Source: Prorocentrum cordatum (lineage: Eukaryota). From it: a DNA stretch of 56,923 nt. Positions 37,686 to 53,646 of this stretch are shown piece by piece; within the stretch, counting starts at the first letter, position 1; every line of letters begins with the position of its first letter. The notes beneath the pieces were generated by a model. The model did no database searches. It was not told where the DNA came from and saw only the letters and a program-made list of their open reading frames with translations. Location: NCBI GenBank assembly GCA_963575745.1, contig CAUYUJ010000054.1, forward strand, positions 62,001 to 118,923, read 5' to 3'. Made by a program: the position numbers and the translations under genes.

Positions 37686-37741
37686 CTCCTTCTTATCCCC
37701 ATCGCGCCCGCTGATTGCAGTCGTCTGCAGCTTCTCGGCCC
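37682..37741 (+). repeat. Split direct repeat A1
   Basis: 60/60 identical to 47766-47825. Confidence 0.97.
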
Positions 37742-38013
37742 GATAGCTGCCCCGCTCGCCCCCCACTCCCCTCCCCGCGCGCGCGCGGCCGGGGCGCCAG
37801 GGGCCCGCGGGGCCATCGCCGTTCAGGTTTCCTCGACACCTACGCGGCGATCGTCGACTCCGGGTTCGCCACCCCGCGCTGGCCCAAGTCGGTCGGGCCG
37901 GCGCCTGTGGCCCGTACGACGAGAGCGAGCGTCGGGGCCGACCGTCCGTTCTGAGCGGTGGTCGGTCGGGCAGGCGCGCCTTTCGGCACCCTGCCTGCCG
38001 TGGCCACTGGGCC

Positions 38014-41000
38014 TTGCTAGCACCGTCGCTGCTCGCTCTTCGGCGGGCGGTGCGGACAGGGCCCATGCCACGTCCTGCCGTTGGCAGGTCTCTCCAGCCT
38101 GCACCAGTCTGGTGGTCTTCGGCGCTCTCCACGCCGACTTCGGCGCAAAACTCCTCTCCCTCCTCCTTCGCCTTCTCCCCCTTGGCCTTTGGGGCGGCGG
38201 AGCAGGAGGCCCATCTGAGGAGAGGAGTAGGAGGGGGGCCTCACACGCCGCAGCGCCACGCCTTGCGCCGTGGCGCAGCGCCAGCCCTCGTCTCGGGCGT
38301 TCAAAGTGCCGCCGCGCCTGGGGTCTCAGCCGCCGCTTCTACGCAAGACTTTCAGCCGCCGCGACAGAGACGCCCGACGGAGGGCACAGTGGCCAAAGGC
38401 GCTCCGACGCGCCGCCCAAGGGCTTCAGCCGCCGCGCAAGCCATGCCCGCCATTCCTGCTGCCAGCGAACCCAATGCCAGCGTGTTCAACGCCGAAGCAC
38501 CAGAGGGGTGCCCTGCGAAGATAACTGCGCTCTTGGGAAGGGAAGTGGTGGACGAGGATCTCTCTTACCTCCCCCCAACTCCTTCTCCTTGCCTCTACTC
38601 CGCCACCTGGCTCACCTGTGCCGCTAGGCATGGCGACCACTTTGTGGGCCCCGCCTGCTCCACCGTGGGCGGGGGAGCGTCACTCGCGGGGCACACGGGC
38701 TTTGCCGCCGCCTCGGTTTCCTGGCCTTCGGCTGGAGGCATCGCCGCGGCCACTTCTGCCGACGATGCTGCTCGGACCGCCGGGGGCGGATACATTCGCG
38801 CACCTCCAGGCTTGGACCCGCTGCCTCCTGGGCCTCCGGTCAGGCAGATTGGGCCGCCTCCGGGCCTTGACGTCTTGGAGGTTGGTTCCCAGAGGCTCAG
38901 TGCGGCATGCCCGCGCCGTGGCGCGGCTGCGGCTTGGAGCCCCACGGTCGTCTATCAGGTCCGACCTGGGGCCACGGCGTCAGAGGCCGCGCTTCCTCTA
39001 CTGAGGACGCCGCCTCCGCCGCCACAGGGTCGCCCCTGGAGCGGTGCGTTGGCCCTGGTGGAGGCGGGGTGCTCCGTCGTCCCTCCTCGGGGTTCTTCGG
39101 CGGCCATGTCCGACTGCGGCCTTGACGGGGGTAGTCCCTCCTTTTCGAGGGCGGCGCCGCGGTGTGGCTCGAAAGGGGTTGGTATGCGCCCTGCCAGCGA
39201 TGCTGATACGGCCCCGCAGGGAGGGGCTCGTACCGCCCCCCCAGCCGCCACCGCAGTCCACCAGCCTGGCACCCCGCCGCGGAGCGGCCCCAGGGCCACC
39301 TCGGCCTTACGCGCCGACCTCCACTTGTGGGACCTGCACACGGGCTCCGACACTCAGGGTGTGGATCCGCCGCCAGGCCTCTCCGGCTCCGAAGCAGGCT
39401 CACGGGTGCCGCCTTTGGTCGACCTCCGCGCGGCCCTTGCCTCGGATGGGGTGCAGCTGTTTAGCAGCGGGAGTATGCCGTGCACTGCGGCGTCGCCACT
39501 TCTGTCCGAGCGCTTCACGGTCGCCGACGGTGACCGCGCGGCCAGCGGAACACCCCTGAGCGCGGACTGGCATCGTGTCTCCGGGGATTCGCCCTCCCAG
39601 GCCAGGCATCTGAGGCCACCGTCCGGAGTTGCCGTCCCAGAAGCGGATGTTCATGCGCCGCCGCCGCTCCACCGTAGCGCGGTTGGTCCCGCCTCACTTC
39701 GGGCGGGCGCTGCCCGTGGGCGCATGTGGTATGGTGAGCGCGCAGGGCTCCTGCCTTTCACTAACCTCGAGGGCGGTGTCGGCGCGCCAGCTGCCGGAGG
39801 GCCACCTCCCCAGTCAAGCGCCCGGGGCGCTTGCACTTGTAACGCAGCGGGCACTCAAGCAGCGGAGTCAACTCCAGGCCTCGTCGGCTCCGCCGCGGGC
39901 TCCTCGGGTGAAGGCGTCGCCGCAGCCGCAGCCATTCCAGCGCGGCCCCGACGCCTCTCGTGCGATCGGATCCAGGGCCTCGCCGCGTCGATCCCTGCTC
40001 GCGCTCGCGAGCGCCTGCTGGCCGACCCTCGTGGTCTGAGCTCTTCTCCGTCACCACTGGTAGGCATGCGCCCTTCCAGCGATGCTGTTACGGCCCCGCA
40101 GGGAGGGGTTCGTGCCGCCGGTGGGAAGTCAGGAGCGGGCTCGTCCACGGCGGCCGCGACGCCCCGGGATGCGGTCCCTGCGTTCTGCTCTGTCCGAGGG
40201 GCCGCTTTCGCCACGGGCTCCTCGGGCGAATGCGCCGCCGCAGCCGTTGCCACTCCAGCGCGGCCCCGACGCCTCTCGTGCGATCGGATCCAGGGCCTCG
40301 CCGCGTCGATCCCTGCTCGCGCTCGCGAGCGCCTGCGGGCCGACCCTCGTGGTCTGAGCCCTTCTCCGTCCCCACTGGTCGGCATGCGCCCCTCCAGCGA
40401 TGCTGTTACGGCCCCGCAGGGAGGGGTTCGTGCCGCCGGTGGGACGTCAGGAGCGGGCTCGTCCGCGGCGGCCGCGACTCCCCGGGATGCGGCCCCTGCG
40501 TTCCGCTCTGTCCGAGGGGCCGCTTTCGCCGCGGGCTCCTCGGATGAAGGCGTCGCCGCAGTCACTGCCACTCCAGCGCGGCCCCGACGCCGCTCGGCCT
40601 CCACCAACAGCGCTGCCGCACTCCCCGCCTTCAGGCTCCGACGAGTTCGTCGGGTCCGCACTCGGCGTGGAGGACGGCGGGGTCGTCGGGCCGTCGATGG
40701 TAGCTGCCGTGCCGCTCACGCTCCAGCCCATGCTGGTGCAGCTGCCTCGTCTTCGGACGCCCTTTCTGGTGCTTCAGAGGCCGCTTCTGGGGCCCCTGTC
40801 CAAGGGAGCCGCCGCTCGCGCTTCAATCGGAGCGTGCGCGAGGAAGCGGCAGCAATGTTGCGCTTCGGAAGTGCACCGCCCGTTGTCGTGCCTCCTGCGG
40901 CTGGAGCCCCGCCACGGTTTTCAGCTTCAGCCGAAGCTGCGGGGGCCCCGTCGGTAGGCATGTGCTCTGCCGGCGATGCTGGTGCGGCCCCGCAGGAAGG

Positions 41001-44000
41001 GGCTCGTGCCGCCGACGGGGTCACCGCGGAGGGGGGTGCACGCGCCGCCCAGGCCAGCGGCTACCAAGGCGGAGCCCCCGACGAGCCTCCTCGGCTCCAA
41101 GCTGTCGGTGGCCCTGCCATGGACCAAGAGGGCTCCGGGCAGCCCCGAGCCGGCCCCGCCGACCAAGGTGCCTCTTACCCCCAATCTGTTGGAGCCGCCC
41201 ACGTCGGGCGGGTCGAACGGGGTGCTGGATGTGCTCGGCCGCCGCCGCCGGGGAGGTCTCATCCCGCGGCCGCCGCCCGCCGCTTCTGGACCGAGCGAGG
41301 TCGCGATGGTAGGGATGCGCAGGTGCAGCGCGGCTGTTTCGGCGCCGCTGGGCCCCGTGCGTGCCGCCATGGTGATTCTCGCTCGCTCCCAGGCGCTTCC
41401 CCCGCTCCTCCTGGCCATCCTGGTCCCAGCGTGGGCGTCGGGGCGCGCCCTGCGCCCTTCGCGCCTTGCCCTTTTCCCAGCACATCCCGTACCAGCACTG
41501 GCACTGGCAGGTCTGCGCCTTTCGTGGCCGATCTGTCCGCCTTGCTGCGCCTGTTTCCAGGCGCCAGCATCGACGTCACCCACTGGGCCGCTGCTCTTGC
41601 CCAGGTCGGGATGGGGACTCGATGCTCCCTTGCCGCTTTTACCCGCACATCTTTCTGCGCGCTGGAATGGGACGACTCGTACTTGTCGGGGTCGGCTCCC
41701 CGCGATCCTTGGCCGTGCCCTCCCTCGCCGCCTCTTCCGCCGCCACCTGGTCACCTTACGGGTCGCGCGCGGGAGCGCTGGCGTGTGAGGCGCGCCGCCC
41801 GCACGTTGTCGCAGCATGCTGTCGTTGCGCTCAACTGGCTCACCTTGGGTCATCCCAGCTTCGCTCCCGCCGAAGCTCGGGTGCGGGAAACGGTCACACC
41901 CTGCCAGGAGGGAGTTCGCAGTCGCCTCGAGCGTCTGTGTCGGATCGCAGTTCGCCTTGCCCGTGGTGGCAAGAGCGACCTTGGTCGGGCTTTCGCCAAG
42001 TTCGACTCCACCGAAGTCTCGCTCCATGGCCTGGCTACCCATGTTGCAGCTCTTGAGGCTTCGTTCACCTCTTCCTCACAAGTGCCCGCCCCCATGCGGC
42101 AACTCCCCGTCAGCGCGACGCCCCTGGCAAGCTCGTTGGCGGCCGCGGCAGGCTGGGACTCCACCCAGGCTGAGCCTTTCGACCTTCGGGTCCAGGCGTC
42201 CCGCATCAAGTGGGATTACTCTCCTACGTTTGATCCCACTCCGTACTTGTCCGACGATCTGGTACGTTCCGCCTTTCATGACCCCGACGTCATGCGGCTA
42301 CCAGAGGACGAGTGGCCTTCGGGCTTTTCGGGTGCTCGTGTGCACATGGACCGCGAGCAGCTGTGGGAGCTCTTGCGCAAGTGGGACTCTTGTGGCGCCC
42401 TGTATCTGACCCCCTCCGACAACCTCGCCTGGGACGAGGCTTGTGGAGCGTTCAGGGTCCCGAAGGACGAGGCTCATGACCGTCTCATCCTGAATCCGAC
42501 GGTAGTAAACAGTCGTTGCAGCAGCGTGTCCTCCAGCACTCAGCGCCTCGGCCAGGGTTTCCTCCTGTGCCGCCTGGGGCTCGCGCCCGGGGAATGGCTG
42601 GTGGTTTCGTGTGACGACCTGCGCGAGTTCTACTACACGTTCAAGGTCCCGCCCGCTCGTGCACGCCGCAACGCCCTCCGCGTCAAGCTGCCCAGCTCGC
42701 GGTTCAGAGGCTTCAACGCGTGGCGGGCAGACCTTGAGGGGTTGGACGTTTCTCCCTGCCTTAATGCGCTGGCCATGGGTGACAACATGGCAGTGGAGAT
42801 CGCCAACTCCGCACACGAGGGCGTGCTGCGCAGCTTCGGCGCGCTCCGGCCTTCCGAGCAGGCTGTGCATCGCCTGCCGTTCCCTCGGGGGCCGTACGTC
42901 GAGATGTTAAACATCGACGACCACACGGGCTTTCAGAAGCTCTCGTGGCGCGGGAGCGCCCCGCGCCCCGACGACCCGACACGCCGCGACAGGGAGGTCT
43001 TTGCTGCGTGCGATCGCGGCTACCCCCAGGTGGGTCTCATTCAGCACCCCGGGAAGAGAGCCAGGGGCGAGACCCACAAAGTCGTTGTCGGCGCCGAGGT
43101 GGAGGGCAGGATCGGCATCGTGTGTGCTCCCCTGGTTCGCACTGTGGCCCTTTGCCGCTTGACTCTGATTCAGGTGTTCCTCGGTCGCTCGACCCGGGCG
43201 TTGTTGAGCTCGCTCGTGGGTTGTTGGGTGCAGGTGTTTTTGTATCGACGTCCCATCCTGTCGATATTCACTCACATCTACACCTTCATCACGACACTTC
43301 CCGACGACGGGCTTGAGTATGAGCTCCCGTCTTCGGTTCGCGACGAATTGCAAGCCTGCACCTACCTTGCCTTCGTTGCGATGACCGACCTTCGGGCGAC
43401 GCCTTGCCCTGAAGTGTTCGGCACGGATGCCTCCCTCGGCTGGGGCGGTGTTGTCCGCAGCGACATCAGTTCGCACCTGTCACAAGAATTGTGGCGGCGC
43501 TCCGAGCACGGCGGCTGGCATACTCGTCTCCACGACCGCCACTTGCTCATGGTTCTGAGCCGCGGGGAACCTTTAGGCCCCGAGCTGACCCAGATACACC
43601 GCGAGGTGGGGCTTCCCTCCCTCGAGCTCCCCATCGCACCGCGCTGGGTCAGTGAGCTGTCGGAGGCGCTGCGTTTCCGTTTGGCCTACAAGTGGGAATT
43701 CCGCACGCCCCGCCACATCAATATCCTGGAGACCACCGTGTTCAAGAGTCTGTGCAAGTACTGTTGCATCCGCAACCCTGACTCACGGATCCCTGTTCTC
43801 TTGGATTCCCAAGTGGCACTAGGCGCGGCCGCCCACGGTCGGAGCAGCAGCCCTGGCCTTTCGCACGTGTTGAGCACCTGCTTGCCCTACATTTTGGGGG
43901 GCGGGCTCTACATGGGCGGGCTCTACGTCCCGACCGACGTCCACCGAGCGGACGACCCCACGCGCAATCGCCCTGTTCGCCCCCCCTCGCGTGTCGAGCC

Positions 44001-47000
44001 TGCTTGGTTGCTTGACATAGACGAGGGTCGCTTTGAGCGATTCGACATGATAGCGGCCGCCGACGCCGCCTCCGCGTACCCGACTTGTCTGTGGGGCCGG
44101 TTCGTGCTGCAAGTTCTGGCTCGCAGCCCCGCCGCGGGCGCAGGCCCGCTCGGGCACCCCGAGGATCGCCACGTGGGAGCGCCAGCCCGGGTCGACAGGG
44201 GCGACGCGACGGCCTCCGCCGAGGCCCGCGACGCATATGAAAGCGCCGCGCCGCGCAGGGGGGCTCCTGTCTCCGTCAAGGTGCCCTCGAGCGCGGCGGC
44301 GGTGAGCTTCTCCGCGTCGCGCTGCACTCGCGCCCGTGACAGCCTGCCGGCCGCCCCTCGGGTACCAAGCCCTTCGCCGTCCCCGCCGGTAGGCATGCGC
44401 CCTTCCAGCGATGCTGTTGCGGCCCCGCAGGGAGGGGTTCGCGCCGCCGGTGGAGGGCCAGGAGAGGGCGCGCCCGAGCGGAGGTCACGCGCCAAGAGCG
44501 ACGCAATCGCCGCTGCTCGACCTGGTACGCCCAAGGGGGACGCTCACCCCGTCTCGCTTCTGTCGGAGGCGAACGGCTCGGCTCCAGCTTCGTTGGGGGG
44601 TCTTCTGGGTCGTCCGTCCGTCACGACTCAGACTCGCCACCGCCAAGATCGTGCCGCCAAACTTGTTGCCGCGCTCGATTTGCTCCACCTGGAGCGCGGT
44701 GCGACCACTGATCGCGTGAACGCTCAGTTTCGACGGATGGGTTGGGCCTGCCATCCCGACCGCGATAAGTCGATCGAGGCCAGCAGGAAATGGCGTGCTC
44801 TCTGTGACGCCAAAGCCTTCCTCCTCGGGCCTGGGCGCGATGTTACCGGCCCCGATGCCCCGGCCTCTGGCGGCGCTACTCGCCGTGCTTTGGGCAGAGG
44901 GCTCTTGGCGGCGGGAAGGCGTGACGACGCGAACCGCTCGCGCGGGGTCGCCACTCGGGATTCGGCTCTCGACGCCTCCCTCGGTGCTCGCCTCCGCGGC
45001 ATGCCGGGGGAGCGTCGGAGCGCCCCTGGCGCGTCTCCAGACGCAGAGCCGAGCGCGGTCGCTAGCTGCAGCGACCCAGGGTCGCGGGCTGCGCCACGTT
45101 GTACGGTGCAGACCCCCGCGATGCCTACTGCCGCCATGCGACGCACGCAAGCTCGCCCGGAGGCCGACCTGGGGGCCGCCCGTACCGCGGCCGCGGTGCT
45201 CCCGCCCTTTCGAGCCAGCACCCTGCCCCCCCTGCCAGGGTGCCGCGCCGACGCCCATAGCGTCGCGCCGCGCGCCAGCTCTGCACCTGCCCTGCTGGCC
45301 GGGCGCTCGCTGGGCGCAGCGGCTATGCTGCGTGCTACCCGCGAGCGGACTGCCAGTGCGGCCACCGCCGGGGCGGCACATCACAGGGCCGTGCTTCCGT
45401 GGGGCCACAGCGCAGAGCGCAGCGAGGTGTCGCCGGCTCCCAGCTTTGCCGACTCCTGCTGCGCCGGCCAGCGTGCCGACTCTTGCGCCGCCCAGCTCAC
45501 CGCGTCCCGCGGCGACCAGCTCACTGACTTGCAGCCCTCCAAGCTCACCGACTCCCGCACCGACCAGCTCGCCGACTCCCGCGCCGACCAGATCGCCGAC
45601 TCGCGTGCCGAGGGGCTCGCCGACGCCCGCACCGACCAGCTCGCTGACGCCTTCACCCGTTCCGACTCCCGTGCCGATCCTCTCACCGGATTAGCATTGC
45701 GCACCAGCCGGGTCGTTGGCCCGACGGCCACGGTTGCGAGGCGCGTGCGTGACGAACGGCGCGCTCTGGCGCGGTTCCGTGCCTCGGTCGATGTTCTCGA
45801 CGCCGCTCTTACCGAAGTTGAATTCGGTCGAGGCGCGGAGGCTTGGGGTCCAAGTGCAGGAGAGCTGGCTGAGCTTTTGCAGACGACACTGGCCGAGCTC
45901 GAGCGCCAGAAGGCTGCGTTGCGCATCGCCCGCTCTCGCACTGCCGAGTGCGTCAGAGGGTCCGCTTCCGCCTCGGGCTTTTCGGGTGGAGGCGCCGCCG
46001 CAGCCGCTGCCGGCGCACCCCCGAGAGCTCCCGCCACGGCTGGTAGCGCTACTTTTGCAGCTCAAGCGAAGGAGCGTGCGGATAAGCACACGGCTAGCTA
46101 TCGCGACGTGGTCGAGGCTAGGGCTCATTCGGGCGCCCAGGCGTCGCATCCGCGCAAGCGCCGTGGCGTCGGGCGCCCGTGCTCTGCGGCGCCCGTCACG
46201 CCACGGACCGCCATTAGTTGCGATGAGCGCTCCCGCTCCGCAGCACCTGCCGCCACCCGCTCGGCCGCGTTTTCCGAGACGCTGTGCGCTGTTGACCGCA
46301 GGCGGCGCGAGCACTCCCCAGGACTCAGGCCTCTGATCCTGGACGGCACGGACCGCCAGCCGGAAGCCGCGCCGAGCACCGGCGAGGTCGTCGAGGCCCC
46401 CCGCGCCGAGCAACGCGGCCGCACCTCGCGTCGCAAGCGCAGGCGTGTTCGGGCTTCCGCCGGAGCGGCAGCTACCACTCCTGCCAATCCCTCTGGTCAA
46501 GAGCCGCCCGCGTCAGCCTTCGTGGCAGGGCGCCAGGACTGGCCTGCCTCTCTGGAGCCTGCCCTTCCCGAGGGGGCTTCCGAGGCCCTCGGGGTGAAGG
46601 TGGAGAGCCACTCTCGGCGCGTCCCCTCTTGCGGCGACCAGCGCACTCGTTCGCTTAAGGCGTTTGACGTGTGGTGCGCCGAGCACACAGGAGTGGCACT
46701 TGCCACATGGGCTCGCAGCGGCATCTTGCTCGGGAGAGCGCTCGCGACCTTCGGCGTGTGGTTGTACGATGCTGGCTTCCCCCGCCTCGTCCTCGTGAAT
46801 GCGATCCGGGGAGCACAGGCCCTTCAGCCCCACTGGAGGGGCTTCCTCACCGAGGCGTGGGATGTGGCGGAGCGGTGGATCCCTTCCAAGCCTCCCTGTC
46901 CCCTCCCACCGCTACCGCGTGCTCTGCTGCGCGCCATGGTAGCGTTGTGCCTCGCATGGGACTGGCCGGATATGGCCACCCTGCTGCTTGCCGGGTTCAC

Positions 47001-47592
47001 TATGTCCGTGAGGCCTGGTGAGTTGGCAACCGCCCGCCGGAGCGACCTCACTCTGCCCATTGACCGCCGTGAGTCCACGGGCGACGCTTTGCTGAGCATC
47101 TCTGTTCCGGAGGCCCGGGGGTCTGGCGGAGAGCGTCAACACGCTCGGTGCTCCGATCGTGCTGTGGTCAGGATGATGGAGCTGGTCTTTAGAGATTTGA
47201 GTCCCACCGATCCCCTATTGACCTTCGGTCAAAGCGGCTTCCGCACTCGGTGGCTCGATCTTCTTTCGGCGCTGGGCGTCCCGCTCGCCAGAGCGCCATC
47301 GGGGTTCGATCTGTCCCCTGCGCTGCGCTTCAGAACCGATATTTCGGACGGCATTAATCGCGTCTTCTGGCGTGATCGCTGGCGGCTAGCTTCCAGTACA
47401 GAGCGCTATCTCCACGATGCTGCCGCCTCTGCAGTCCTCCCATCATTGGCTGAAGCCGCTCGGGACCGCGTTTCTTACCTCGCCGAAGCAAGCGACCTCC
47501 TCGTCGCATCCTTTCTGAATGTTGGCCCAGCTGTGTGGCCCATTCAGCTCGCGGCCGCCCGCCGAAACCTTGTCACTTCGCAAGGGCTTTGA
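38014..47592 (+). CDS. Retroelement polyprotein (3192 aa): Ala/Pro-rich N-terminus, RT, RNase H, J-domain, tyrosine recombinase
   Basis: Uninterrupted frame, open from 37747, with TTG at 38014, first ATG at 38065 and TGA ending at 47592, just before B1. The start codon is uncertain. Domain motifs were read directly from the translation. Confidence 0.9.
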   Translation: MLAPSLLALRRAVRTGPMPRPAVGRSLQPAPVWWSSALSTPTSAQNSSPSSFAFSPLAFGAAEQEAHLRRGVGGGPHTPQRHALRRGAAPALVSGVQSAAAPGVSAAASTQDFQPPRQRRPTEGTVAKGAPTRRPRASAAAQAMPAIPAASEPNASVFNAEAPEGCPAKITALLGREVVDEDLSYLPPTPSPCLYSATWLTCAARHGDHFVGPACSTVGGGASLAGHTGFAAASVSWPSAGGIAAATSADDAARTAGGGYIRAPPGLDPLPPGPPVRQIGPPPGLDVLEVGSQRLSAACPRRGAAAAWSPTVVYQVRPGATASEAALPLLRTPPPPPQGRPWSGALALVEAGCSVVPPRGSSAAMSDCGLDGGSPSFSRAAPRCGSKGVGMRPASDADTAPQGGARTAPPAATAVHQPGTPPRSGPRATSALRADLHLWDLHTGSDTQGVDPPPGLSGSEAGSRVPPLVDLRAALASDGVQLFSSGSMPCTAASPLLSERFTVADGDRAASGTPLSADWHRVSGDSPSQARHLRPPSGVAVPEADVHAPPPLHRSAVGPASLRAGAARGRMWYGERAGLLPFTNLEGGVGAPAAGGPPPQSSARGACTCNAAGTQAAESTPGLVGSAAGSSGEGVAAAAAIPARPRRLSCDRIQGLAASIPARARERLLADPRGLSSSPSPLVGMRPSSDAVTAPQGGVRAAGGKSGAGSSTAAATPRDAVPAFCSVRGAAFATGSSGECAAAAVATPARPRRLSCDRIQGLAASIPARARERLRADPRGLSPSPSPLVGMRPSSDAVTAPQGGVRAAGGTSGAGSSAAAATPRDAAPAFRSVRGAAFAAGSSDEGVAAVTATPARPRRRSASTNSAAALPAFRLRRVRRVRTRRGGRRGRRAVDGSCRAAHAPAHAGAAASSSDALSGASEAASGAPVQGSRRSRFNRSVREEAAAMLRFGSAPPVVVPPAAGAPPRFSASAEAAGAPSVGMCSAGDAGAAPQEGARAADGVTAEGGARAAQASGYQGGAPDEPPRLQAVGGPAMDQEGSGQPRAGPADQGASYPQSVGAAHVGRVERGAGCARPPPPGRSHPAAAARRFWTERGRDGRDAQVQRGCFGAAGPRACRHGDSRSLPGASPAPPGHPGPSVGVGARPAPFAPCPFPSTSRTSTGTGRSAPFVADLSALLRLFPGASIDVTHWAAALAQVGMGTRCSLAAFTRTSFCALEWDDSYLSGSAPRDPWPCPPSPPLPPPPGHLTGRARERWRVRRAARTLSQHAVVALNWLTLGHPSFAPAEARVRETVTPCQEGVRSRLERLCRIAVRLARGGKSDLGRAFAKFDSTEVSLHGLATHVAALEASFTSSSQVPAPMRQLPVSATPLASSLAAAAGWDSTQAEPFDLRVQASRIKWDYSPTFDPTPYLSDDLVRSAFHDPDVMRLPEDEWPSGFSGARVHMDREQLWELLRKWDSCGALYLTPSDNLAWDEACGAFRVPKDEAHDRLILNPTVVNSRCSSVSSSTQRLGQGFLLCRLGLAPGEWLVVSCDDLREFYYTFKVPPARARRNALRVKLPSSRFRGFNAWRADLEGLDVSPCLNALAMGDNMAVEIANSAHEGVLRSFGALRPSEQAVHRLPFPRGPYVEMLNIDDHTGFQKLSWRGSAPRPDDPTRRDREVFAACDRGYPQVGLIQHPGKRARGETHKVVVGAEVEGRIGIVCAPLVRTVALCRLTLIQVFLGRSTRALLSSLVGCWVQVFLYRRPILSIFTHIYTFITTLPDDGLEYELPSSVRDELQACTYLAFVAMTDLRATPCPEVFGTDASLGWGGVVRSDISSHLSQELWRRSEHGGWHTRLHDRHLLMVLSRGEPLGPELTQIHREVGLPSLELPIAPRWVSELSEALRFRLAYKWEFRTPRHINILETTVFKSLCKYCCIRNPDSRIPVLLDSQVALGAAAHGRSSSPGLSHVLSTCLPYILGGGLYMGGLYVPTDVHRADDPTRNRPVRPPSRVEPAWLLDIDEGRFERFDMIAAADAASAYPTCLWGRFVLQVLARSPAAGAGPLGHPEDRHVGAPARVDRGDATASAEARDAYESAAPRRGAPVSVKVPSSAAAVSFSASRCTRARDSLPAAPRVPSPSPSPPVGMRPSSDAVAAPQGGVRAAGGGPGEGAPERRSRAKSDAIAAARPGTPKGDAHPVSLLSEANGSAPASLGGLLGRPSVTTQTRHRQDRAAKLVAALDLLHLERGATTDRVNAQFRRMGWACHPDRDKSIEASRKWRALCDAKAFLLGPGRDVTGPDAPASGGATRRALGRGLLAAGRRDDANRSRGVATRDSALDASLGARLRGMPGERRSAPGASPDAEPSAVASCSDPGSRAAPRCTVQTPAMPTAAMRRTQARPEADLGAARTAAAVLPPFRASTLPPLPGCRADAHSVAPRASSAPALLAGRSLGAAAMLRATRERTASAATAGAAHHRAVLPWGHSAERSEVSPAPSFADSCCAGQRADSCAAQLTASRGDQLTDLQPSKLTDSRTDQLADSRADQIADSRAEGLADARTDQLADAFTRSDSRADPLTGLALRTSRVVGPTATVARRVRDERRALARFRASVDVLDAALTEVEFGRGAEAWGPSAGELAELLQTTLAELERQKAALRIARSRTAECVRGSASASGFSGGGAAAAAAGAPPRAPATAGSATFAAQAKERADKHTASYRDVVEARAHSGAQASHPRKRRGVGRPCSAAPVTPRTAISCDERSRSAAPAATRSAAFSETLCAVDRRRREHSPGLRPLILDGTDRQPEAAPSTGEVVEAPRAEQRGRTSRRKRRRVRASAGAAATTPANPSGQEPPASAFVAGRQDWPASLEPALPEGASEALGVKVESHSRRVPSCGDQRTRSLKAFDVWCAEHTGVALATWARSGILLGRALATFGVWLYDAGFPRLVLVNAIRGAQALQPHWRGFLTEAWDVAERWIPSKPPCPLPPLPRALLRAMVALCLAWDWPDMATLLLAGFTMSVRPGELATARRSDLTLPIDRRESTGDALLSISVPEARGSGGERQHARCSDRAVVRMMELVFRDLSPTDPLLTFGQSGFRTRWLDLLSALGVPLARAPSGFDLSPALRFRTDISDGINRVFWRDRWRLASSTERYLHDAAASAVLPSLAEAARDRVSYLAEASDLLVASFLNVGPAVWPIQLAAARRNLVTSQGL
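39892..40591 (+). repeat. In-frame 318-bp (106-aa) tandem duplication, ~2.2 copies, inside polyprotein ORF
   Basis: GGCATGCGCCC occurs at 40063 and 40381 (period 318). Units start at 39892, 40210 and 40528. Confidence 0.9.
42346..43300 (+). other. Reverse transcriptase domain (DIRS-like) within polyprotein; boundaries approximate
   Basis: Ordered RT motifs AFRVPKDEAHDRLILNPTVVN (~42448), SCDDLREFYYTF (~42607), LAMGDNMAVEIAN (~42769), MLNIDDH (NIDD 42910-42921), GLIQHPGK and VVGAEV. Confidence 0.9.
43411..43965 (+). other. RNase H domain (DIRS type) within polyprotein
   Basis: TDAS (43423-43434), HINILE (43714-43731), LLDSQVALGA (D at 43804) and YVPTDVHRADDPTR (to 43965) supply the D-E-D-D catalytic set in DIRS-like context. 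Confidence 0.92.
44671..44826 (+). other. DnaJ-type J-domain within polyprotein
   Basis: ALDLLHLERGATTDRVNAQFRRMGWACHPDRDKSIEASRKWRALCDAKAFLL aligns by eye, without gaps, to the J-domain pattern (L-G-x-x-x-x-A-S/T...I..A-Y-R-K-L...HPD-K....A...F..I..A-Y..L). HPD is at 44752-44760. Confidence 0.8.
45451..45687 (+). repeat. In-frame 24-bp (8-aa, DSRxDQLA-like) tandem repeat inside polyprotein ORF
   Basis: About 9 degenerate GACTCCCGCNCCGACCAGCTCGCC-like units. Confidence 0.85.
46642..47520 (+). other. Tyrosine recombinase domain within polyprotein, atypical active site
   Basis: LLLAGFTMSVRPGEL (R at 47011), SPALR (R at 47326) and RDRWRLASSTERYLHD (W 47380, Y 47407), preceded by a helical core-binding-like region. 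Confidence 0.85.
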
Positions 47593-47603
47593 GCCTGGGT
47601 ATG

Positions 47604-47769
47604 GCTGCTGCGGCCTCCCTTGGCCGCCCGGGTGCCCTCGTTGGACGAGGCCGCCTGAGAGCGTCGCACGGCCCGCCCGCGTAGGCCTGTCCCGCTTTAC
47701 GGGCCGCCGCGGGCGCGCGCCGCGCGTTCGCCCTGAGACGACTGCTCACTTGCGCAGCGTGCGGGGATG
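47604..47769 (+). repeat. Split direct repeat B1
   Basis: 166/166 identical to 47869-48034; overlaps A2 by GATG. Confidence 0.97.
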
Positions 47770-47825
47770 CTCCTTCTTATCCCCATCGCGCCCGCTGATT
47801 GCAGTCGTCTGCAGCTTCTCGGCCC
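47766..47825 (+). repeat. Split direct repeat A2
   Basis: Identical to A1. Confidence 0.97.
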
Positions 47826-47868
47826 CCTCCCTCTCTCCTCCCTCCTTCTTCGAAGGCTGACCTGCGGC

Positions 47869-48034
47869 GCTGCTGCGGCCTCCCTTGGCCGCCCGGGTGC
47901 CCTCGTTGGACGAGGCCGCCTGAGAGCGTCGCACGGCCCGCCCGCGTAGGCCTGTCCCGCTTTACGGGCCGCCGCGGGCGCGCGCCGCGCGTTCGCCCTG
48001 AGACGACTGCTCACTTGCGCAGCGTGCGGGGATG
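47869..48034 (+). repeat. Split direct repeat B2 (right terminus)
   Basis: Identical to B1; followed directly by GAT-type repeats. Confidence 0.97.
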
Positions 48035-48290: not shown

Positions 48291-51200
48291 AGACAGTTGA
48301 CGGTCAGAAATTCAAACAGTCCTGACACGTGGCGTACCCCGCCAGCCTATCCAGAAACGGTTGCCGTGAGAGCTGCCTGGATGAGGGGCGTAGGTTCGCA
48401 CATAGTGAAACAGGAACACCAACGATCGTGATGGCAGAGGCTTCGGGGAGCCTCTTGGAGCCGTATTGGGCCAATTTCGGATGCCTTGGGGTTTTTTTGG
48501 GGGGGCCTTCTTGGGGCTCTTCCGGGGCTCGCTTGGGGCCCTCGAGGGCCTCTGTGGGCCATCGTGGAGGCCCTCGATCAAAGGGGAGGGTGGTCATCGA
48601 TTCCCCCGCCGCCCCCCCCTCGGAGGCCCAAGCTTCGGCTCTTGGGGCTATCTTGGGACGCTCTTGGGACTCTCTTTGCTGCCGTCTTTGGGCCCTATTG
48701 GTCCTCTCGTTGAGCCTTCCTGGGCTATCGTGGGCCCTCGGAGGCCCATCGCAAGCGAAACGGCAAAAGTGCAATCATCATTGATTTACACTGGGGTTTG
48801 GAGACGGTTTTTGGCCTCTCGGAGGCCTCCTTGGATGGCTCCGTGGAAACTTGAAGCCGTCTTAAGGCCATCCTGAGGCATCTTGGAGTTACTTCGGAGG
48901 ATATCGTGCGCCATATCAGGCTGTGTTGTGCCATCTTGGCACGTCGGGGCCATCTTGAACCCAAACGGGCCGTCTGACACCCCCCCCCTCACCCCCGTCC
49001 AGACCCAGTGGTTGGGTATGGGGGAGGGGTAACTCCCTTCCGTAATCCCCTCCCCGAATGTAGGAGTAATGGGTTTGATCTGAAAATTCGTGGTTTCGGG
49101 AAGGTTTCGAAGTGCGCGCGTGCGCGGAGATGCGTGCGTGTAGCCCGCATGGTGTTATCCGACCGAGTTGGCGGATGCGCGATGATTTTTGAAGGTTTGC
49201 GACGTGCGCGGTCTCATGCGGCAGGATCGCCAAACGCCGATAGTTCATCGGCTCGCGCCGCACCACCGACCTCTTGGGTTGCTTCGGCGTCGTGGCTCTC
49301 TCCCTCCCGCCCTCCAGCGGGGTGCCAGCCCTTCCTGCCGCGGACCTGGCTGCACGCTGAGTCTGGGACAGTGTTTCGGCTGTCGTGCTTGATATTTTGG
49401 GCCGTAACTCGGGACATCTTCGACTCGTGTTGCCGCTCTGGGAGGGCGCCTCGTTGCGCTCCGGAGTGGCGCATAACCACCGCCCCGACGCAGAGCTTCT
49501 CTGCGCCGCGTGCTTCCTCCTCATCCTCCCCATGTTCCTCCTCCTCCTCCTCCTCCTCCTCCTCCTCCTCCTCCTCCTCCTCCTCCTCCTCCTCCTCCTC
49601 CTCCTCCTCCTCCTCCTCCTCCTCCTCCTCCTCCTCCTCCTCTCTCTCTCCTCCCTCCTCCTCCACTCTTATTCCTCCTCTCCTTCCCTCCTCCTCCTCC
49701 TCCTCCTCCTCCTCCTCCTCCTCCTCCTCCTCCTCTCTGCACTGCAGCGTCGTCGCCTGGCACGCGCCCGCCCGCGAAGGCGGCCGAGCGCGGCCATCAG
49801 AGGCCCGTTTTTTCCCTCGGGTCCGGGTCGGGGCCTGCGGCTCGCAGGCCGGAGTCTGCCGCCTGTCGCTTGGCACGTCGGACCCGCGGATTCTTGGGGC
49901 CGTTGGTTGAGGGGAACAAAAAGTCACATAAACATGTAAACTCGGAGGTCCGGATTTCTCGGATCGGCGTTGGACACCCCTCCCTGGCGCGCGGGCCCCA
50001 GCGCCGATCCGAGGAATCCGCGCGGACCTCCGAGTTTTTATGTTTATGTCACTTTTTGTTCCCCTATTTAGTTCTCTCTGGAGGGGCCTGCTGGCGGCCT
50101 CGGGGACCTCTTCTGGGCGGAGGGTTCGAAGCGTCAGCTCGAGCTCCTTCTCCCGCATTCTCTTGGCGGGCCTCTTGCGCCGTCTTGGGCACCTTTGGAA
50201 TCTGGAGGAATCTGGAGGAAGCCACAGGAGTCCAGAGGAGTCGGAGTCCTGAGGAGTCCTGAGGGGAGCTTCTTGGGGGCAGGTTGGGGCCTCCGAGATG
50301 CCTGGTGAAGGCCTCTTGGGGCCTGATGCTGGGGGCATCTGGACTCGTCATCGGGCGCTCTTGGCCCGTCCGGCGCGGTCGGAGCCAAACGAGGCAATCT
50401 GGCGGCAAGCGTGAAGTGCTATCAAGTGGGATGAGCGCCTCGAAGAAAACAGGCGAAGTGCCCCGCGGAGGCAGGCAGCTTCGCACGGCGGCAAGCCCCG
50501 GACACTCCGAGGAGTCTGGCCACCGCGTCGCCACCGCAGGGGAAGCAGGTGGAACCCCGAAGCGAAGAGCATGCGCATCTGGACGCGTTGGCGCAACGTT
50601 TTGGAGGCCTCTCGTGAGTTTCTTGGGGGCATGGTGGGGCCTCTTGGGGCCATTTCAGGGCCTATGAGGGCCTCTTCGGGGGGCCTCTTCGGAGGGGGAT
50701 TGAAACCGTCCTCTGGCGCTTTTGGGCTGTCCGGCGCCTCAGGCGATCGTCATAGGGGGCCTTTCTAGAGCCTGGACGCTGCGAAGTCAGCGACAGCGGG
50801 TATTCAAACACACCCGCTTCCCTCGAAGGAAGTTGGAGAATTTTTCCTCCTTGGGGTCCTCTTGGGGTCTTCTTGGGGGTTGTCTTGGGGCGTCTTGGGG
50901 CCTCTTCGGGATATCGTGGGGCCGTTTTGGAGCCTCCTGGGGCCATCGGGGCCACGTGGAGGCCATCTGCAGTCGTCTTGAGGCGTCCTGGGGCCATTTC
51001 GAAGTCATGTGACGCCGTCCAGGATCATTTCTGGAACGGATAATCTCCAGGGGAGTCAGCGGATCCGGCTGGACCCCCCCTTTCCACACCGACCAGACCG
51101 GGCCCCCAGGGGACGGGTTTTGGGGATGGGCATCTATCGCAGTCGCCAAGCACCCCCCCAGGGGTCGACGGATGTTCTTTGCATGTCAAACATGGTGCCT

Positions 51201-51654
51201 GTTTTTTTGAGCCTCCACATCTCTTGGAAAGAGCGCGTTCTGTGGGCGCTTGGAGGGGTGGCGGGGGGTGGAGAACCGGCCTCTCCCCCCTGGCCGTGAC
51301 GAAGGGGCGGGTGGTTCAACCCCCCCCTGACTTCTTCTTTCTGCCTCTCCTCGGGCCAGCGCTGGCGTCGGCGGCAGCTGGCGGCGGCGGCGGGGAGCGT
51401 CGATGAAGACGACGACTTCCTTCTCTTGGCCGGCGCCGGCGCTTGCGGCGGCTGGCGGCGGCGGCGGGAATCGTCGACGAGGACGACGGCGACAACGATG
51501 ACGACGACGACGCTCCGCCACCGTGCCTTGGTTTTGGGCCAGAGTCCTCATGGATGCCTCTTGGAGTTTTGTCGAATGGCTCTCGGGGGCCTCTGAAGGG
51601 CATTTGTGAAGCCTTCTGGGGGCCTCTTGGACATCTCTTGGGGCCTCTCTGAGA

Positions 51655-52953
51655 TGGGGGTGGTGGTGGTGGGCTGTGGTGGTGTGGTGGGTTGTGGTGG
51701 GTGGTGAGTTTGGTGGTTGGTGGTTGGTGGTTGTGGTGGTTTGGTGGTGTGGTGGTTGTGGTGGTGGCTTGGTGGTGGGTAGTGGTGGTGTGGTGGTGTG
51801 ACAGGGTGGTGGTAGTGGTGTGGTGGTTTGTGGCTGGTGGTGGTGTCTAAGTGGTGTGGTGTGATGGTTGTGGTGGGTTGTGGTGGTGGTGGTGGCGTTT
51901 CTTTCGGTAGGTGGTGGGTGGTGGTGGTGTGGTGGATTGTAGTGGTTTGTGGTGATGGTGATGATTGTAGAGTGGTGGTTGGTTTTGTGGTGGGTGGTTG
52001 TGGGTGGTGGTGCTGGTGGCGGTGGTGGTGGTGGGTGGTGGTCGTTTGTGGTGTGGTGGAGGTGGTTTGTGATGGTGGTGGTGGTCTGGGTGGTGTTGTG
52101 GTGTGTGGTTTTTGTGGTGGTGGTGGGGTTTCCTCCTTGGCTGGTGGTGTTGGCAGTGGTGGTGGTGGTGGTGGTGGTGGGCTTTGGAGGTGGTGCTGGT
52201 GGTGGTGGTGGTGGTGAAGGTGTGGTGATGTGGTGGTTTGTGGTGGTGGTGGTGGTGGTGATAGGTTGCTCTGGTGGTGAGGTGGTGGTTGTGGCGGTGG
52301 TGGTGGTGTGGTAGATTGTGGTGGTGGTAGTGGTGGTGGTGGGTTGTTGTGGGTGTGGTGGGTGTGGTGGTGGGTTGTTGTGGTGGTGGTTGTGGCTGTG
52401 GTGGTGGTGGTGGTTGCGTGATGGTTTGCGGTAGTCGTGGTGGTGGCGGTGAGTTGTGGTGGTGGTGGTGATTGTGGTAATGTTGGTTGTGGCGGTGATG
52501 GTGGAAGCGTGGTGGCGGTGCTGGTGATGGGCTGCTTGTGGTGGTGGTGGTGTGTGATGGGTGGTGGTGGTGGTAGTTGTGGTGGTGGTGGTGGTTTGTG
52601 GTGGTGGTGGTGGTGGGTTGTGGTGGTGGTGGCGGCGGTGGTGGTGGTGGTGGTGGTGGTGGTGGTGGTGTGGTGGTTTGTGGTGCTGGTGGTGGCTGTG
52701 GTGGCTGTGGTGGGTTGCGGTGGGTTGTGGTGGGTTGTGGTGGTGGAGGTTGCGTTTTTGGTGGTGGTGGTGGTTGTGTGGTGGTTTGTGGTGGTGGTGA
52801 GGCCTTCGAGTCTTCCCGCCACCGTGTTTTGGCTTTGGGTCAGGTGGTGGTGGTGGTGGGCAGTGTTGGTGGTGGTGGTGGTGGTGGTGGCGGTGGTGGT
52901 TGGTGGTGGTGGTGGTGTGGTGGTTGGTTGTGGTGGTGGTTGTTGTGGTGGTG
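51655..52953. repeat. Degenerate (GGT)n microsatellite
   Basis: Direct inspection. Confidence 0.95.
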
Positions 52954-53646
52954 TACATGGCGATTTGTGTTTCCCCTCTGCGGCCTATGGGCCCTCTCTG
53001 GTCATCGTCGCTGCGTTCCCGCCGTCGGTACTGCTGGCCGCCGCCAGCGCCGGCGCCGGCGCCAGCGCCGAGGGGGGGTGGTTTGGACCCCCCCCTGGGC
53101 CCTCTGAGGTCATCGTCGCTGCGTCTGCCGTCGGCGCTGCTGGCCGCCGCCATCGCTGGCGCTGGCGCCTGGGCGGGGGAGGGGTTTTGAACCGCCGCCC
53201 CTCCTGGGAGGGGGAGGGGGGGGTTCGGGCGGGGGATATCAGGGGGAGGGGAGTCCCACTGGTTCTGATCGACGGCGCCGGGTGTTGCGAGGGAACCCAC
53301 CCCCCAGTTAGAAACGCGCCGCCGAATGTTCCCAAGGCAAGCGCCCGTGAAACGCGCTCTCTCATATCTTGATATTGTTAAAGGACCAGAGGCATTTGAC
53401 GGATGCGTGTGCGCGCGCACATGGCCCAAATTGCATTATTTGATCGGTGCTATTACAAAGCGCGCTTGGTTGAGTAACTATCGCGTTTGCGCCGCAGTGT
53501 TTTCTTGTTCGGCAAGGATGAATGGTGTGTCGATACCAGGCCAGCCGGCATTTAATCGTTTTAGCTGTCGGATGATATATCACTCGTAATAGCGTGAATT
53601 ATCCCAGTGCGACCCTATCTAGGAGTTGGAGCATCTAGGCAAGCAA

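What the first reader, a model, noticed from the sequence alone, without database searches (positions are those of the whole stretch)
44671..44826. Retrotransposon polyprotein carries its own Hsp40-type J-domain between RNase H and the tyrosine recombinase
Seen: a ~52-aa segment with intact HPD and gapless J-domain helix spacing lies in frame inside the RT-RH-YR ORF, between low-complexity linkers. Established: J-domains recruit and activate Hsp70. Polyomavirus T antigens carry one, and hepadnaviral RT needs Hsp40/Hsp70 for activation. The usual accessory domain of DIRS-order elements is a methyltransferase, which I cannot see here. Inference: this element may recruit host Hsp70 in cis to fold or activate its RT/recombinase or remodel its RNP. 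I do not know of a described J-domain-bearing YR retroelement, but cannot search to confirm novelty.
Basis: partly seen in the sequence, partly recalled or inferred. Interest (0 to 1): 0.9.

Follow-up and report, generated by a model that had tools for sequence, protein, structure and literature searches.

The report
J-domain inside a tyrosine-recombinase retrotransposon
A young jumping gene in a GC-rich marine eukaryote carries, inside its single giant protein, a short segment that looks like the part of Hsp40 co-chaperones that switches on Hsp70, an add-on not found in print for this class of element, though whether it works is untested.

Summary
Window 37686-48034 is a 10.3-kb retrotransposon with split direct repeats (A1...B1-A2-B2, both pairs 100% identical) and one open frame of 3,281 codons. 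A high-confidence model of aa 1481-2133 matches retroviral RT plus RNase H. The C-terminus is homologous to a domain that hits phage-integrase profiles in 5 of 26 relatives.

Codons 2309-2360 (44671-44826) match Pfam DnaJ: 28.3 bits alone (cut-off 27.8), but 25.9 and 19.8 bits in wider context. They align without gaps to solved J-domains, HPD on HPD. They form a composition island in about 820 aa of low-complexity linker. None of 150 control ORFs gave a comparable hit.

The J-domain is lineage-specific. None of 150 relatives has it, including the 30 that span RNase H to recombinase. Two contigs from other sequencing runs carry the segment at 5-6% divergence without indels. Family-wide conservation, selection and Hsp70 binding could not be tested, and the fold prediction was inconclusive. 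This copy's recombinase lacks a conserved Lys and the G-x-G-A box.

Best reading: a real, acquired J-domain that probably recruits host Hsp70 to the polyprotein, as in polyomavirus T antigen and RNA-virus polyproteins. A neutral captured fragment remains a serious rival.

The parts
37686..37741 (+). Left terminal repeat A1 (56 bp)
   Evidence: 100% identical to A2 at 47770-47825. The exact match starts 4 nt earlier (GATG, 37682-37685 = 47766-47769). That is the end of B in the B1-A2 junction and the last 4 nt of the left flank.
37747..47592 (+). Single ORF of 3,281 codons stop to stop (first ATG at 38065, codon 107)
   Evidence: This frame has 0 stops, against 32-77 stops in the other five frames over the same DNA.
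37747..41553 (+). N-terminal ~1,270 codons: low-complexity A/G/P/R/S-rich region with internal duplications and no detected relatives
   Evidence: No Pfam family. phmmer matches of the 150 relatives begin at about aa 1230-1360. Composition. A 388-bp tandem duplication, 39891-40278 / 40209-40596, is 93% identical.
41554..43386 (+). Conserved N-terminal extension plus reverse transcriptase (aa ~1270-1880); catalytic D1624, D1724, D1725 present
   Evidence: 4,211 representative proteins match at E<=1e-3. AF2 with 36 sequences gave mean pLDDT 90.2. All 50 listed Foldseek PDB hits are retroviral RTs, best E 3e-14. Invariant columns.
43399..44136 (+). RNase H (aa ~1885-2130); D1894, E1995, D2020, D2069 present
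   Evidence: Same model and Foldseek hits, which cover RT plus RNase H chains over 566-692 alignment columns. Invariant or nearly invariant columns in the 26-sequence alignment.
44137..44670 (+). Linker 1 (aa 2131-2308), low complexity; holds the fifth copy of a repeated module (44306-44476) with an in-frame Met at codon 2217
   Evidence: Composition. The internal DNA repeat is 81% identical to 39977-40146 and 40295-40465.
44671..44826 (+). J-domain-like segment (aa 2309-2360), HPD at aa 2336-2338 (44752-44760)
   Evidence: Pfam DnaJ 28.3 bits, E 1.9e-6 for the segment alone. Gapless PDB alignments to J-domains. Control ORFs negative. The single-sequence AF2 model puts HPD in the loop between two helices, but at pLDDT 55.
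44827..46608 (+). Linker 2 (aa 2361-2954): low complexity, D-Q-L-A-D-S-R type repeats (45476-45677), a helical heptad-like stretch near aa 2700-2730, and a basic run SRRKRRRVR at aa 2894-2902 (46429-46452)
   Evidence: No Pfam family. This frame has 0 stops in 824 linker codons, against 3-22 in the other frames.
46609..47511 (+). Tyrosine-recombinase domain (aa 2955-3255): R3089, H3132, R3194, W3208 and Y3221 present; E3122 replaces a conserved Lys; the G-x-G-A box after R3194 is missing
   Evidence: phmmer homology to the C-termini of relatives. Integrase profiles hit 5 of 26 (phrog_1, best E 2.2e-7) and 2 of 26 (phrog_216) relatives; XerA hits 2 of 26 and XerS 1 of 26. Residue comparison.
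47604..47769 (+). Repeat B1 (166 bp)
   Evidence: 100% identical to B2 at 47869-48034.
47770..47825 (+). Repeat A2 (56 bp), followed by a 43-bp spacer (47826-47868)
   Evidence: 100% identical to A1.
47869..48034 (+). Right terminal repeat B2 (166 bp); the element ends at 48034 in GATG/ATG-rich microsatellite DNA
   Evidence: The flanks on both sides are (GAT)n-like repeats.

Best explanation
The segment is a genuine J-domain: helices I-III with the HPD loop, and no recognisable helix IV. One lineage of split-direct-repeat (Ngaro/PAT-type) tyrosine-recombinase retrotransposons acquired it. It sits as a small folded island in about 820 residues of disordered linker between RNase H and the recombinase, within a single 3,281-codon polyprotein.

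Inferred mechanism: the HPD loop and the basic helix II dock on the nucleotide-binding domain of host cytosolic Hsp70 and trigger ATP hydrolysis. Hsp70 then clamps onto neighbouring segments of the same polyprotein. This would keep a very long, largely disordered protein soluble. It could also help the RT/RNase H or recombinase reach an active state, or remodel the element's nucleoprotein complex.

Shown here: the sequence match, the reading frame, the element's anatomy and the lineage-specific distribution. Inferred only: the fold, Hsp70 binding and any benefit to the element.
For: 1. DnaJ is the only Pfam family in the ORF. It scores 28.3 bits (E 1.9e-6) for the segment alone, just above the 27.8 cut-off. 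NCBIfam DnaJ_bact gives a weak independent hit on the same residues, in 1 of 26 aligned family members, which is this element.

2. 26 of 28 PDB rows are J-domain alignments of the same stretch. They are gapless over 51-53 residues with HPD on HPD, and the basic and aromatic positions of helices II and III are matched.

3. 150 control ORFs of the same GC-rich window gave nothing comparable.

4. The segment is a composition island with higher entropy than its flanks. GC2 falls to 0.61 there, against 0.73-0.75 in the neighbouring 100-codon blocks.

5. The frame stays open through both linkers: 0 stops in 824 linker codons against 3-22 in the other frames, and 0 in 3,281 codons overall against 32-77.

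6. The element looks recently mobile. A1/A2 and B1/B2 are 100% identical. The model cited in PMC6681497 (passages read) expects these repeats to be near-identical at insertion. The RT and RNase H catalytic residues are intact.

7. The J-coding stretch is not private to this copy. 477-nt contigs from two other runs of two studies cover 44681-45157 with 30 and 23 differences and no gaps (table 8).

8. There is precedent. J-domains are embedded in the polyproteins of 11 RNA-virus families and in polyomavirus T antigen (bioRxiv 10.1101/2022.02.15.480533, passage read). DIRS-type elements have also captured accessory enzyme domains (PMC5890265, passages read).
Against: 1. The profile score is borderline. 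In a 122-aa context it is 25.9 bits and in the whole ORF 19.8 bits (E 8.7e-4), both under the cut-off. That is the same order as the best noise hit among the controls, E 3.4e-4.

2. The best PDB E-value is only 1e-3.

3. The profile match stops at position 53 of 63, and the sequence turns into G/P-rich linker straight after helix III. Helix IV is therefore not evident.

4. None of the 150 nearest representative relatives matches the segment (phmmer, E<=10). None of the 34 long relatives scanned has a Pfam DnaJ hit. This includes all 30 relatives that span RNase H to recombinase, whose spacers are up to 67 aa in 12 and 327-495 aa in 18.

5. No relative of the J region was found in two protein searches or in metagenome and viral contig scans. 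Conservation and selection are therefore untested.

6. Contigs of more distant siblings appear to jump from 43848 or 44490 to 45892. This may mean the J-bearing 1.4-2.0 kb is missing or replaced in them. The tool marks the sequence between the two sides as not known, and 45892-45972 borders an internal repeat (table 5).

7. The linker region is prone to duplication, which fits passive capture.

8. The recombinase of this copy has Glu where 25 of 25 aligned relatives and 4 of 6 close siblings have Lys. It also lacks the G-x-G-A box present in all 31. Constraint on this copy may therefore be relaxed.
Confidence: 0.5

Rival explanations
1. Neutral passenger. A fragment of a host J-protein gene was copied into the hypervariable linker of one retrotransposon lineage, by template switching or recombination. 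It is simply carried along. It still looks like a J-domain because too little time has passed for decay, and it gives the element no benefit.
For: - The segment is absent from all 150 nearest relatives, including the 30 that span the RNase H to recombinase junction.
- It lies in a region with several internal duplications and low-complexity repeats.
- Helix IV is not recognisable.
- This copy's recombinase departs from invariant family positions.
- More distant siblings may lack the segment (table 5).
Against: - HPD and the helix II/III core positions are intact.
- The frame is open through the whole linker.
- Two variant contigs, 4.8% and 6.3% different, keep the stretch without indels.
- The segment is already far from any J-domain found (about 30-35% identity to the best PDB matches). 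That does not look like a very recent copy of a standard host gene, but the host's own J-proteins could not be compared.
Confidence: 0.33
2. The J-domain is real and functional but belongs to a separately made J-plus-recombinase protein. Translation would begin at the Met of the repeated module at codon 2217, or the polyprotein would be processed near it. The Hsp70 recruitment would then serve the integration step (recombinase folding, assembly or disassembly on DNA, nuclear entry) and not reverse transcription.
For: - A module of 61-172 bp that encodes ...VGMRPSSDAVTAPQGG... with an in-frame Met occurs five times in the ORF. The last copy lies about 92 codons upstream of the J segment.
- In many DIRS-order elements the recombinase is a separate ORF (PMC6681497, passage read).
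- A basic SRRKRRRVR run lies between the J segment and the recombinase.
Against: - No stop separates RNase H from the J segment.
- No protease was detected.
- There are no expression data of any kind.
- The repeated module also occurs four times in the N-terminal region, where no such role is apparent.
Confidence: 0.1
3. Chance resemblance. An amphipathic helix-loop-helix in a biased Ala/Arg-rich translation happens to carry HPD and scores just over a profile threshold.
For: - The score falls below the Pfam cut-off once flanks are included.
- The single-sequence model had pLDDT 55.
Against: - E 1.9e-6 for the segment, and DnaJ is the only family reported.
- 26 of 28 PDB rows are J-domains aligned in one register without gaps.
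- None of 150 control ORFs of the same composition gave DnaJ or any hit above a cut-off.
- The segment departs in composition from its flanks.
Confidence: 0.05

Closest known systems
Ngaro-like and PAT-like tyrosine-recombinase retrotransposons (order DIRS)
   Same: - The order RT, RNase H, tyrosine recombinase.
- Split direct repeats in the order A1 ... B1-A2-B2, with each pair identical (pattern as described in PMC6681497).
- No target-site duplication is evident. A 4-nt GATG is shared between the flank and the end of repeat B.
- As in Ngaro, no methyltransferase is detected.
   Different: - One continuous 3,281-codon ORF instead of separate or overlapping gag, pol and recombinase ORFs.
- About 1,270 N-terminal and 824 internal codons of low-complexity sequence.
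- A J-domain in the place where DIRS/PAT elements have a methyltransferase.
- RT and recombinase too diverged for Pfam.
- Placement in an RT/RNase H tree with named Ngaro and PAT references was not done.
SymbioDIRS-Dnmt3 of Symbiodinium (PMC5890265)
   Same: A DIRS-type element with the A-coding-B-A-B repeat arrangement that took a host-type accessory domain into its polyprotein. Its RT is also too divergent for Pfam seed alignments (passages read). 18 of the 30 junction-spanning relatives here carry a 327-495-aa spacer whose consensus shows C5-methyltransferase-like motifs (weak PHROG methyltransferase hits).
   Different: The captured domain is a cytosine methyltransferase, not a co-chaperone domain. 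For those elements, many copies and conservation of the domain were shown; here they were not.
J-domains in polyproteins of RNA viruses (11 families of Kitrinoviricota and Pisuviricota; bioRxiv 10.1101/2022.02.15.480533)
   Same: A J-domain embedded in the polyprotein of a selfish replicator. Those authors propose that it aids polyprotein folding, processing or assembly (passage read).
   Different: Those are RNA viruses with RdRp polyproteins. This is a chromosomal retrotransposon with RT, RNase H and a tyrosine recombinase. No sequence comparison with those viral J-domains was made.
Polyomavirus large T antigen N-terminal J-domain
   Same: A mobile genetic entity carries its own J-domain with HPD, fused to its replication protein (mentioned in the passage read; the HPD dependence is recalled, not checked here).
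   Different: In T antigen the domain is N-terminal and belongs to a DNA-virus helicase. Here it is internal and flanked by long disordered linkers.
Chaperone-dependent activation of hepadnaviral reverse transcriptase
   Different: Hepadnaviruses use host J-proteins in trans and encode none themselves.

Membership tests
J-domain (Pfam PF00226 DnaJ) | Profile match at or above the curated cut-off | tested here: inconclusive
   28.3 bits against a cut-off of 27.8 for the 52 aa alone. 25.9 bits in a 122-aa context and 19.8 bits in the whole ORF, both below the cut-off. NCBIfam DnaJ_bact 12.1 bits, E 0.093.
J-domain (Pfam PF00226 DnaJ) | HPD tripeptide in the loop between helix II and helix III | tested here: met
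   HPD at aa 2336-2338 aligns with HPD of T. thermophilus DnaJ2 and human HSP40 in gapless alignments. In the low-confidence model it lies between helices 32-41 and 50-71 of the 91-aa piece.
J-domain (Pfam PF00226 DnaJ) | Compact four-helix J fold | tested here: inconclusive
   The single-sequence AF2 model has mean pLDDT 55.5. Foldseek PDB gave no match at E<=0.001. VIA-align gave only generic helical matches with Z up to 5.4. The profile match ends before helix IV.
J-domain (Pfam PF00226 DnaJ) | HPD-dependent stimulation of Hsp70 ATPase | not testable with these tools
   This needs a biochemical assay.
Order DIRS (tyrosine-recombinase retrotransposons) | Reverse transcriptase with RNase H | tested here: met
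   AF2 with 36 sequences gave pLDDT 90.2 and pTM 0.87. All 50 listed Foldseek PDB hits are retroviral RT chains, best E 3.1e-14. The catalytic Asp and Glu columns are invariant and present. Pfam and PDB sequence profiles found nothing.
Order DIRS (tyrosine-recombinase retrotransposons) | Tyrosine recombinase instead of a DDE integrase | tested here: inconclusive
   The C-terminal domain is homologous to that of relatives (49-134 bits). Of 26 relatives, 5 hit PHROG integrase phrog_1 (best E 2.2e-7), 2 hit phrog_216, 2 hit XerA and 1 hits XerS. The window's own copy hits no integrase profile. It keeps R3089, H3132, R3194, W3208 and Y3221, but has E3122 for the conserved Lys and lacks the G-x-G-A box. 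No structure model was made of it.
Ngaro-like / PAT-like / VIPER-like (split-direct-repeat groups) | Split direct repeats A1 ... B1-A2-B2 | tested here: met
   A1 37686-37741 equals A2 47770-47825, and B1 47604-47769 equals B2 47869-48034, both at 100%.
Ngaro-like | No methyltransferase domain between RNase H and recombinase | tested here: met
   No methyltransferase family in Pfam, PHROGs or NCBIfam for this element. The 12 closest-type relatives have spacers of at most 67 aa.
Ngaro-like | Placement within the Ngaro clade in an RT/RNase H tree | not tested
DIRS1-like | Inverted terminal repeats with an internal complementary region | tested here: not met
   Self-comparison of the window lists only direct matches between the element's ends, and no inverted match.

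The most novel reading that the evidence does not exclude
This would be the first retrotransposon family known to encode its own Hsp70 co-chaperone module. One lineage of tyrosine-recombinase retroelements replaced the usual accessory slot between RNase H and recombinase with a J-domain. That domain would load host Hsp70 in cis onto a giant, mostly disordered polyprotein. The arrangement would have arisen independently of polyomavirus T antigen and of RNA-virus polyproteins. It would imply that chaperone-assisted activation, known for hepadnaviral RT, is a wider requirement among reverse-transcribing elements.
Probability: 0.35. Interest if true: 0.75.

Novelty: new variant of a known kind. 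Interest (0 to 1): 0.55.

Why it matters
Accessory domains captured by retroelements show which host systems limit their spread. Methyltransferases in DIRS-type elements are the known example. A working J-domain would point to Hsp70 as such a system for tyrosine-recombinase retrotransposons, whose replication is poorly understood. It would give a simple handle, the HPD mutant, to test chaperone dependence of a retrotransposon RT or recombinase. It would also add a third independent case, after polyomaviruses and RNA viruses, of selfish elements carrying their own Hsp70 trigger. If it is only a captured fragment, it still shows how freely these giant low-complexity linkers take up host coding sequence.

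Tried and rejected
**Searches for relatives of the J region, all empty**
- The search for homologous proteins with aa 2270-2430: lengths 88-282 and 283-2000.
- Metagenome contig scan with aa 2240-2480, and a second scan with the RNase H part.
- Viral contig scan.
- The scan's own notes, searched by place, sequence and words. Only two unrelated Naegleria PAT-like notes came up.
- These searches need shared exact words or 8-residue peptides, so they show little about absence.

**Fold of the J segment**
- The single-sequence AF2 model had pLDDT 55.5.
- Foldseek PDB and VIA-align wide gave only weak generic helical matches. I count this as inconclusive, not as a miss.

**Complex prediction**
- I submitted the J segment with E. 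coli DnaK and ATP. The job was counted but not folded, so there is no verdict.

- The protein-atlas search was unreachable four times and then reported that it does not hold the sequence.
- No whole genome is held for the window.

**Sequence profiles for RT, RNase H and recombinase**
- Pfam on the ORF pieces, on 34 relatives and on 36 alignment members.
- PDB phmmer and profile searches.
- All found nothing. Structure and PHROG integrase profiles settled the question instead.

**Expression**
- No RNA holder was listed among the sequencing runs, so nothing can be said about expression.

**Depth and copy number**
- Depth bins of laid contigs suggest fewer copies of the J region than of RT/RNase H (table 2). 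The tool says depth is not a copy number, so I did not use it.

**Apparent skips in sibling contigs**
- Skips 43848 to 45892 and 44490 to 45892 (table 5) could mean that siblings lack the J segment. The intervening letters are marked not known, and the landing site borders an internal repeat. I treat this as open.

**Other copies in the window**
- None were found, by self-BLAST or by tblastn of the polyprotein.

**Supplements**
- Supplements of the papers cited were not opened. Those of the bioRxiv preprint are closed and may list the viral J-domains.
Full report
**What is there**

The finding lies inside a stop-to-stop ORF of 3,281 codons on the + strand, 37747-47592. The first ATG is at 38065. 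Over the same 9.8 kb the other five frames carry 32-77 stops each, and this frame has none. The DNA is about 70% G+C.

The ORF is bracketed by repeats:
- 37686-37741 is identical to 47770-47825 (A1 = A2, 56 bp).
- 47604-47769 is identical to 47869-48034 (B1 = B2, 166 bp).

This gives the order A1 - coding - B1 - A2 - 43-bp spacer - B2. That is the split-direct-repeat layout described for Ngaro-, PAT- and VIPER-like tyrosine-recombinase retrotransposons. In the reverse-transcription model proposed for these elements, each repeat pair is expected to be near-identical at the time of insertion (PMC6681497, passages read).

The element (37686-48034, 10.3 kb) sits in (GAT)n-like microsatellite DNA. 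The last four bases of the left flank, GATG, equal the last four bases of B. No inverted terminal repeats were seen. No second copy lies in the window.

**The enzyme domains**

Pfam finds no RT, RNase H or integrase. That holds for the ORF, for 34 long relatives and for 36 alignment members. PDB sequence and profile searches were also blank.

The family is nonetheless large. A search of 1.84 billion representative proteins with aa 1501-2400 gave 4,211 hits at E<=1e-3.

An AlphaFold2 model of aa 1481-2133, built with 36 family sequences, reached mean pLDDT 90.2. All 50 listed Foldseek PDB matches were retroviral reverse transcriptases, most with their RNase H, best E 3.1e-14. The RT aspartates (D1624, D1724, D1725) and the RNase H acidic residues (D1894, E1995, D2020, D2069) fall in invariant or nearly invariant columns and are present. 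[quoted passage not shown]

The C-terminal ~300 aa are homologous to the C-termini of relatives. Of 26 aligned family members, 5 hit PHROG integrase phrog_1 (best E 2.2e-7), 2 hit phrog_216, 2 hit NCBIfam XerA and 1 hits XerS. The window's own copy hits none of these.

The recombinase of this copy is odd:
- It keeps R3089, H3132, R3194, W3208 and Y3221.
- It has Glu at 3122, where 25 of 25 aligned relatives have Lys. Among six closer siblings (58-64% identity), four have Lys, one Glu and one Gln.
- It lacks the G-x-G-A box that follows the second Arg in all 31 relatives.

The copy may depend on a sibling's recombinase, or the lineage may have an unusual active site. I could not tell which.

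**The J segment**

Profile evidence:
- DnaJ (PF00226) is the only Pfam family reported for the ORF.
- It scores 28.3 bits (E 1.9e-6) for the segment alone, against a cut-off of 27.8.
- It scores 25.9 bits in a 122-aa context and 19.8 bits (E 8.7e-4) in the whole ORF.
- It covers profile positions 4-53 of 63.

PDB evidence:
- 26 of 28 rows at E<=10 are alignments of the same stretch to J-domains. At least 22 are named DnaJ/Hsp40 by their depositors.
- The best E-value is 1e-3.
- The printed alignments are gapless over 51-53 residues. HPD lies on HPD, and the basic and aromatic positions of helices II and III match.

Control: I scanned the 150 longest other ORFs of the window in all frames, 36,241 aa of similar composition. 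No family reached its cut-off, the best E was 3.4e-4, and none was DnaJ.

Composition: the segment stands out from its surroundings. A/G/P/S/R make up 0.42 of aa 2301-2350, against 0.58-0.80 in neighbouring blocks. GC2 dips to 0.61.

I take this as a real J-domain homologue at about 85-90% odds. Two caveats apply: the score is borderline, and helix IV is not evident.

With no relatives to align, the single-sequence model had pLDDT 55.5. It did place HPD in a loop between two helices. Neither Foldseek nor VIA-align gave a meaningful match.

**Is it a family feature?**

Among the 150 best representatives, none matches the J segment (phmmer, E<=10). None of the 34 long ones scanned has a Pfam DnaJ hit.

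Thirty of the 150 span the RNase H to recombinase junction:
- 12 have a spacer of at most 67 aa. These include the closest full-length relatives, at 40-43% identity.
- 18 have a spacer of 327-495 aa. Its consensus carries C5-methyltransferase-like motifs, and single members gave weak PHROG methyltransferase hits.

The window's spacer is 824 aa. The J-bearing linker is therefore an insertion peculiar to this lineage, in the slot where other lineages carry a methyltransferase or nothing.

Closer siblings exist only as short fragments that do not reach the J region. Searches anchored on the J region found nothing.

The one positive sign comes from laying contigs of four public runs on the element. 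Runs X2 and X3, from two studies, each have a 477-nt contig covering 44681-45157. That is 146 of the 156 J nucleotides. These contigs show 30 and 23 differences and no gaps. The segment therefore exists in at least two further variants, 6.3% and 4.8% diverged, that keep the length.

Contigs of more distant siblings appear to jump from 43848 or 44490 to 45892. The tool marks the intervening letters as not known, and the landing site borders an internal repeat. Whether those siblings lack the J segment stays open. I could not see the variant letters, so no dN/dS could be computed.

**How it most likely works**

Established knowledge of J-domains, as summarised in the passage read, is that they stimulate the ATPase of Hsp70 partners. 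Here the domain is tethered by disordered linkers between the RT/RNase H and the recombinase. The polyprotein is about two-thirds low-complexity sequence.

The simplest mechanism is recruitment in cis. Hsp70 is triggered next to the polyprotein's own exposed segments. This would keep the protein soluble, or help the enzymes or the nucleoprotein complex mature. Neri and colleagues propose the same for J-domains they found in the polyproteins of 11 RNA-virus families.

All of this is inference. Nothing here shows binding.

A variant reading is that a J-plus-recombinase product starts at Met 2217. That Met lies in the fifth copy of a repeated module.

The main rival is a passively captured host fragment in a duplication-prone linker. 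I put the functional reading at about 0.5 to 0.6 including the variant, the passenger reading at about 0.33, and chance at about 0.05.

**Comparison and novelty**

By anatomy the element belongs to the DIRS order. It is of the split-direct-repeat type and Ngaro-like in lacking a methyltransferase. A tree with named references was not made.

Four full-text searches found no paper describing a J-domain in a retrotransposon. The papers that held the terms were judged from listings only, except PMC9940879, where the DnaJ mention concerns host gene names.

The principle has precedents. Selfish replicators carry their own J-domain (polyomavirus T antigen, RNA-virus polyproteins). DIRS-type elements capture host accessory domains (PMC5890265). 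I therefore rate this a new variant of a known kind, of moderate interest until a copy census and an Hsp70 assay are done.

Noticed in passing
window 39177-39237, 40059-40119, 40377-40437, 40953-41013, 44388-44448 (longer form 39977-40146, 40295-40465, 44306-44476): A module encoding ...(SPSPSP)xVGMRPSSDAVTAPQGGVRAAGG... with an in-frame Met occurs five times in the ORF at 81-90% DNA identity. Four copies lie in the N-terminal region and one about 92 codons upstream of the J segment. Its role is unknown; it could be an internal start, a processing site or just a duplication. The laid-contig depth also peaks in the bin 44316-44679.
   Followed up: partly
window 47110-47112 (codon 3122) and 47326-47370: The recombinase of this copy has Glu where 25 of 25 aligned relatives have Lys. 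It also lacks the G-x-G-A box after the second catalytic Arg. The DNA of that patch is unusually A+T-rich for the element. One close sibling fragment (P0157) also has Glu at the Lys position.
   Followed up: partly
relatives P0046, P0050, P0053, P0059, P0092 and 13 others (alignment A2): 18 of the 30 junction-spanning relatives carry a 327-495-aa domain between RNase H and recombinase. Its consensus shows C5 cytosine-methyltransferase-like motifs (LDLxSG..G, PxCxSFS, ENP). Pfam does not detect it, and only weak PHROG methyltransferase hits appear.
   Followed up: partly
relatives P0003, P0004, P0006, P0009, P0011 and others; window aa 1927-1959 (43525-43623): The closest full-length relatives have an insertion of about 320 aa inside the RNase H region, after the first catalytic Asp (D1894) and before the HINxxE Glu (E1995). 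At that exact place the window's AF2 model has its only long low-confidence loop. The content of the insertion is unknown (no Pfam family).
   Followed up: no
window 38128-38491: The summed contig depth in run X1 is about 4,600 in this bin, against about 20-25 in neighbouring bins. Some stretch of the element's 5' region is therefore highly repeated in that data set.
   Followed up: no
window 39891-40596: Tandem duplication of a 388-bp coding segment (39891-40278 and 40209-40596, 93% identical) within the low-complexity N-terminal region of the ORF.
   Followed up: no
window 46429-46452 (aa 2894-2902): A basic run SRRKRRRVR lies just upstream of the recombinase domain and looks like a nuclear localisation signal. 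A second Arg-rich run lies near aa 962-982.
   Followed up: no
window 36200-37690, 51650-52950, 15900-18190, 18447-19393, 53646-54456, 49500-49740 with 3150-4980: The window is rich in tandem and dispersed repeats. These include satellite-like arrays on both sides of the element, a 1.14-kb tandem duplication at 97.6% identity, and short GC-rich repeats shared by many places. The 150 longest other ORFs gave no Pfam family above its cut-off.
   Followed up: no
window 11182-11281: A run of 100 N, which is an assembly gap.
   Followed up: no
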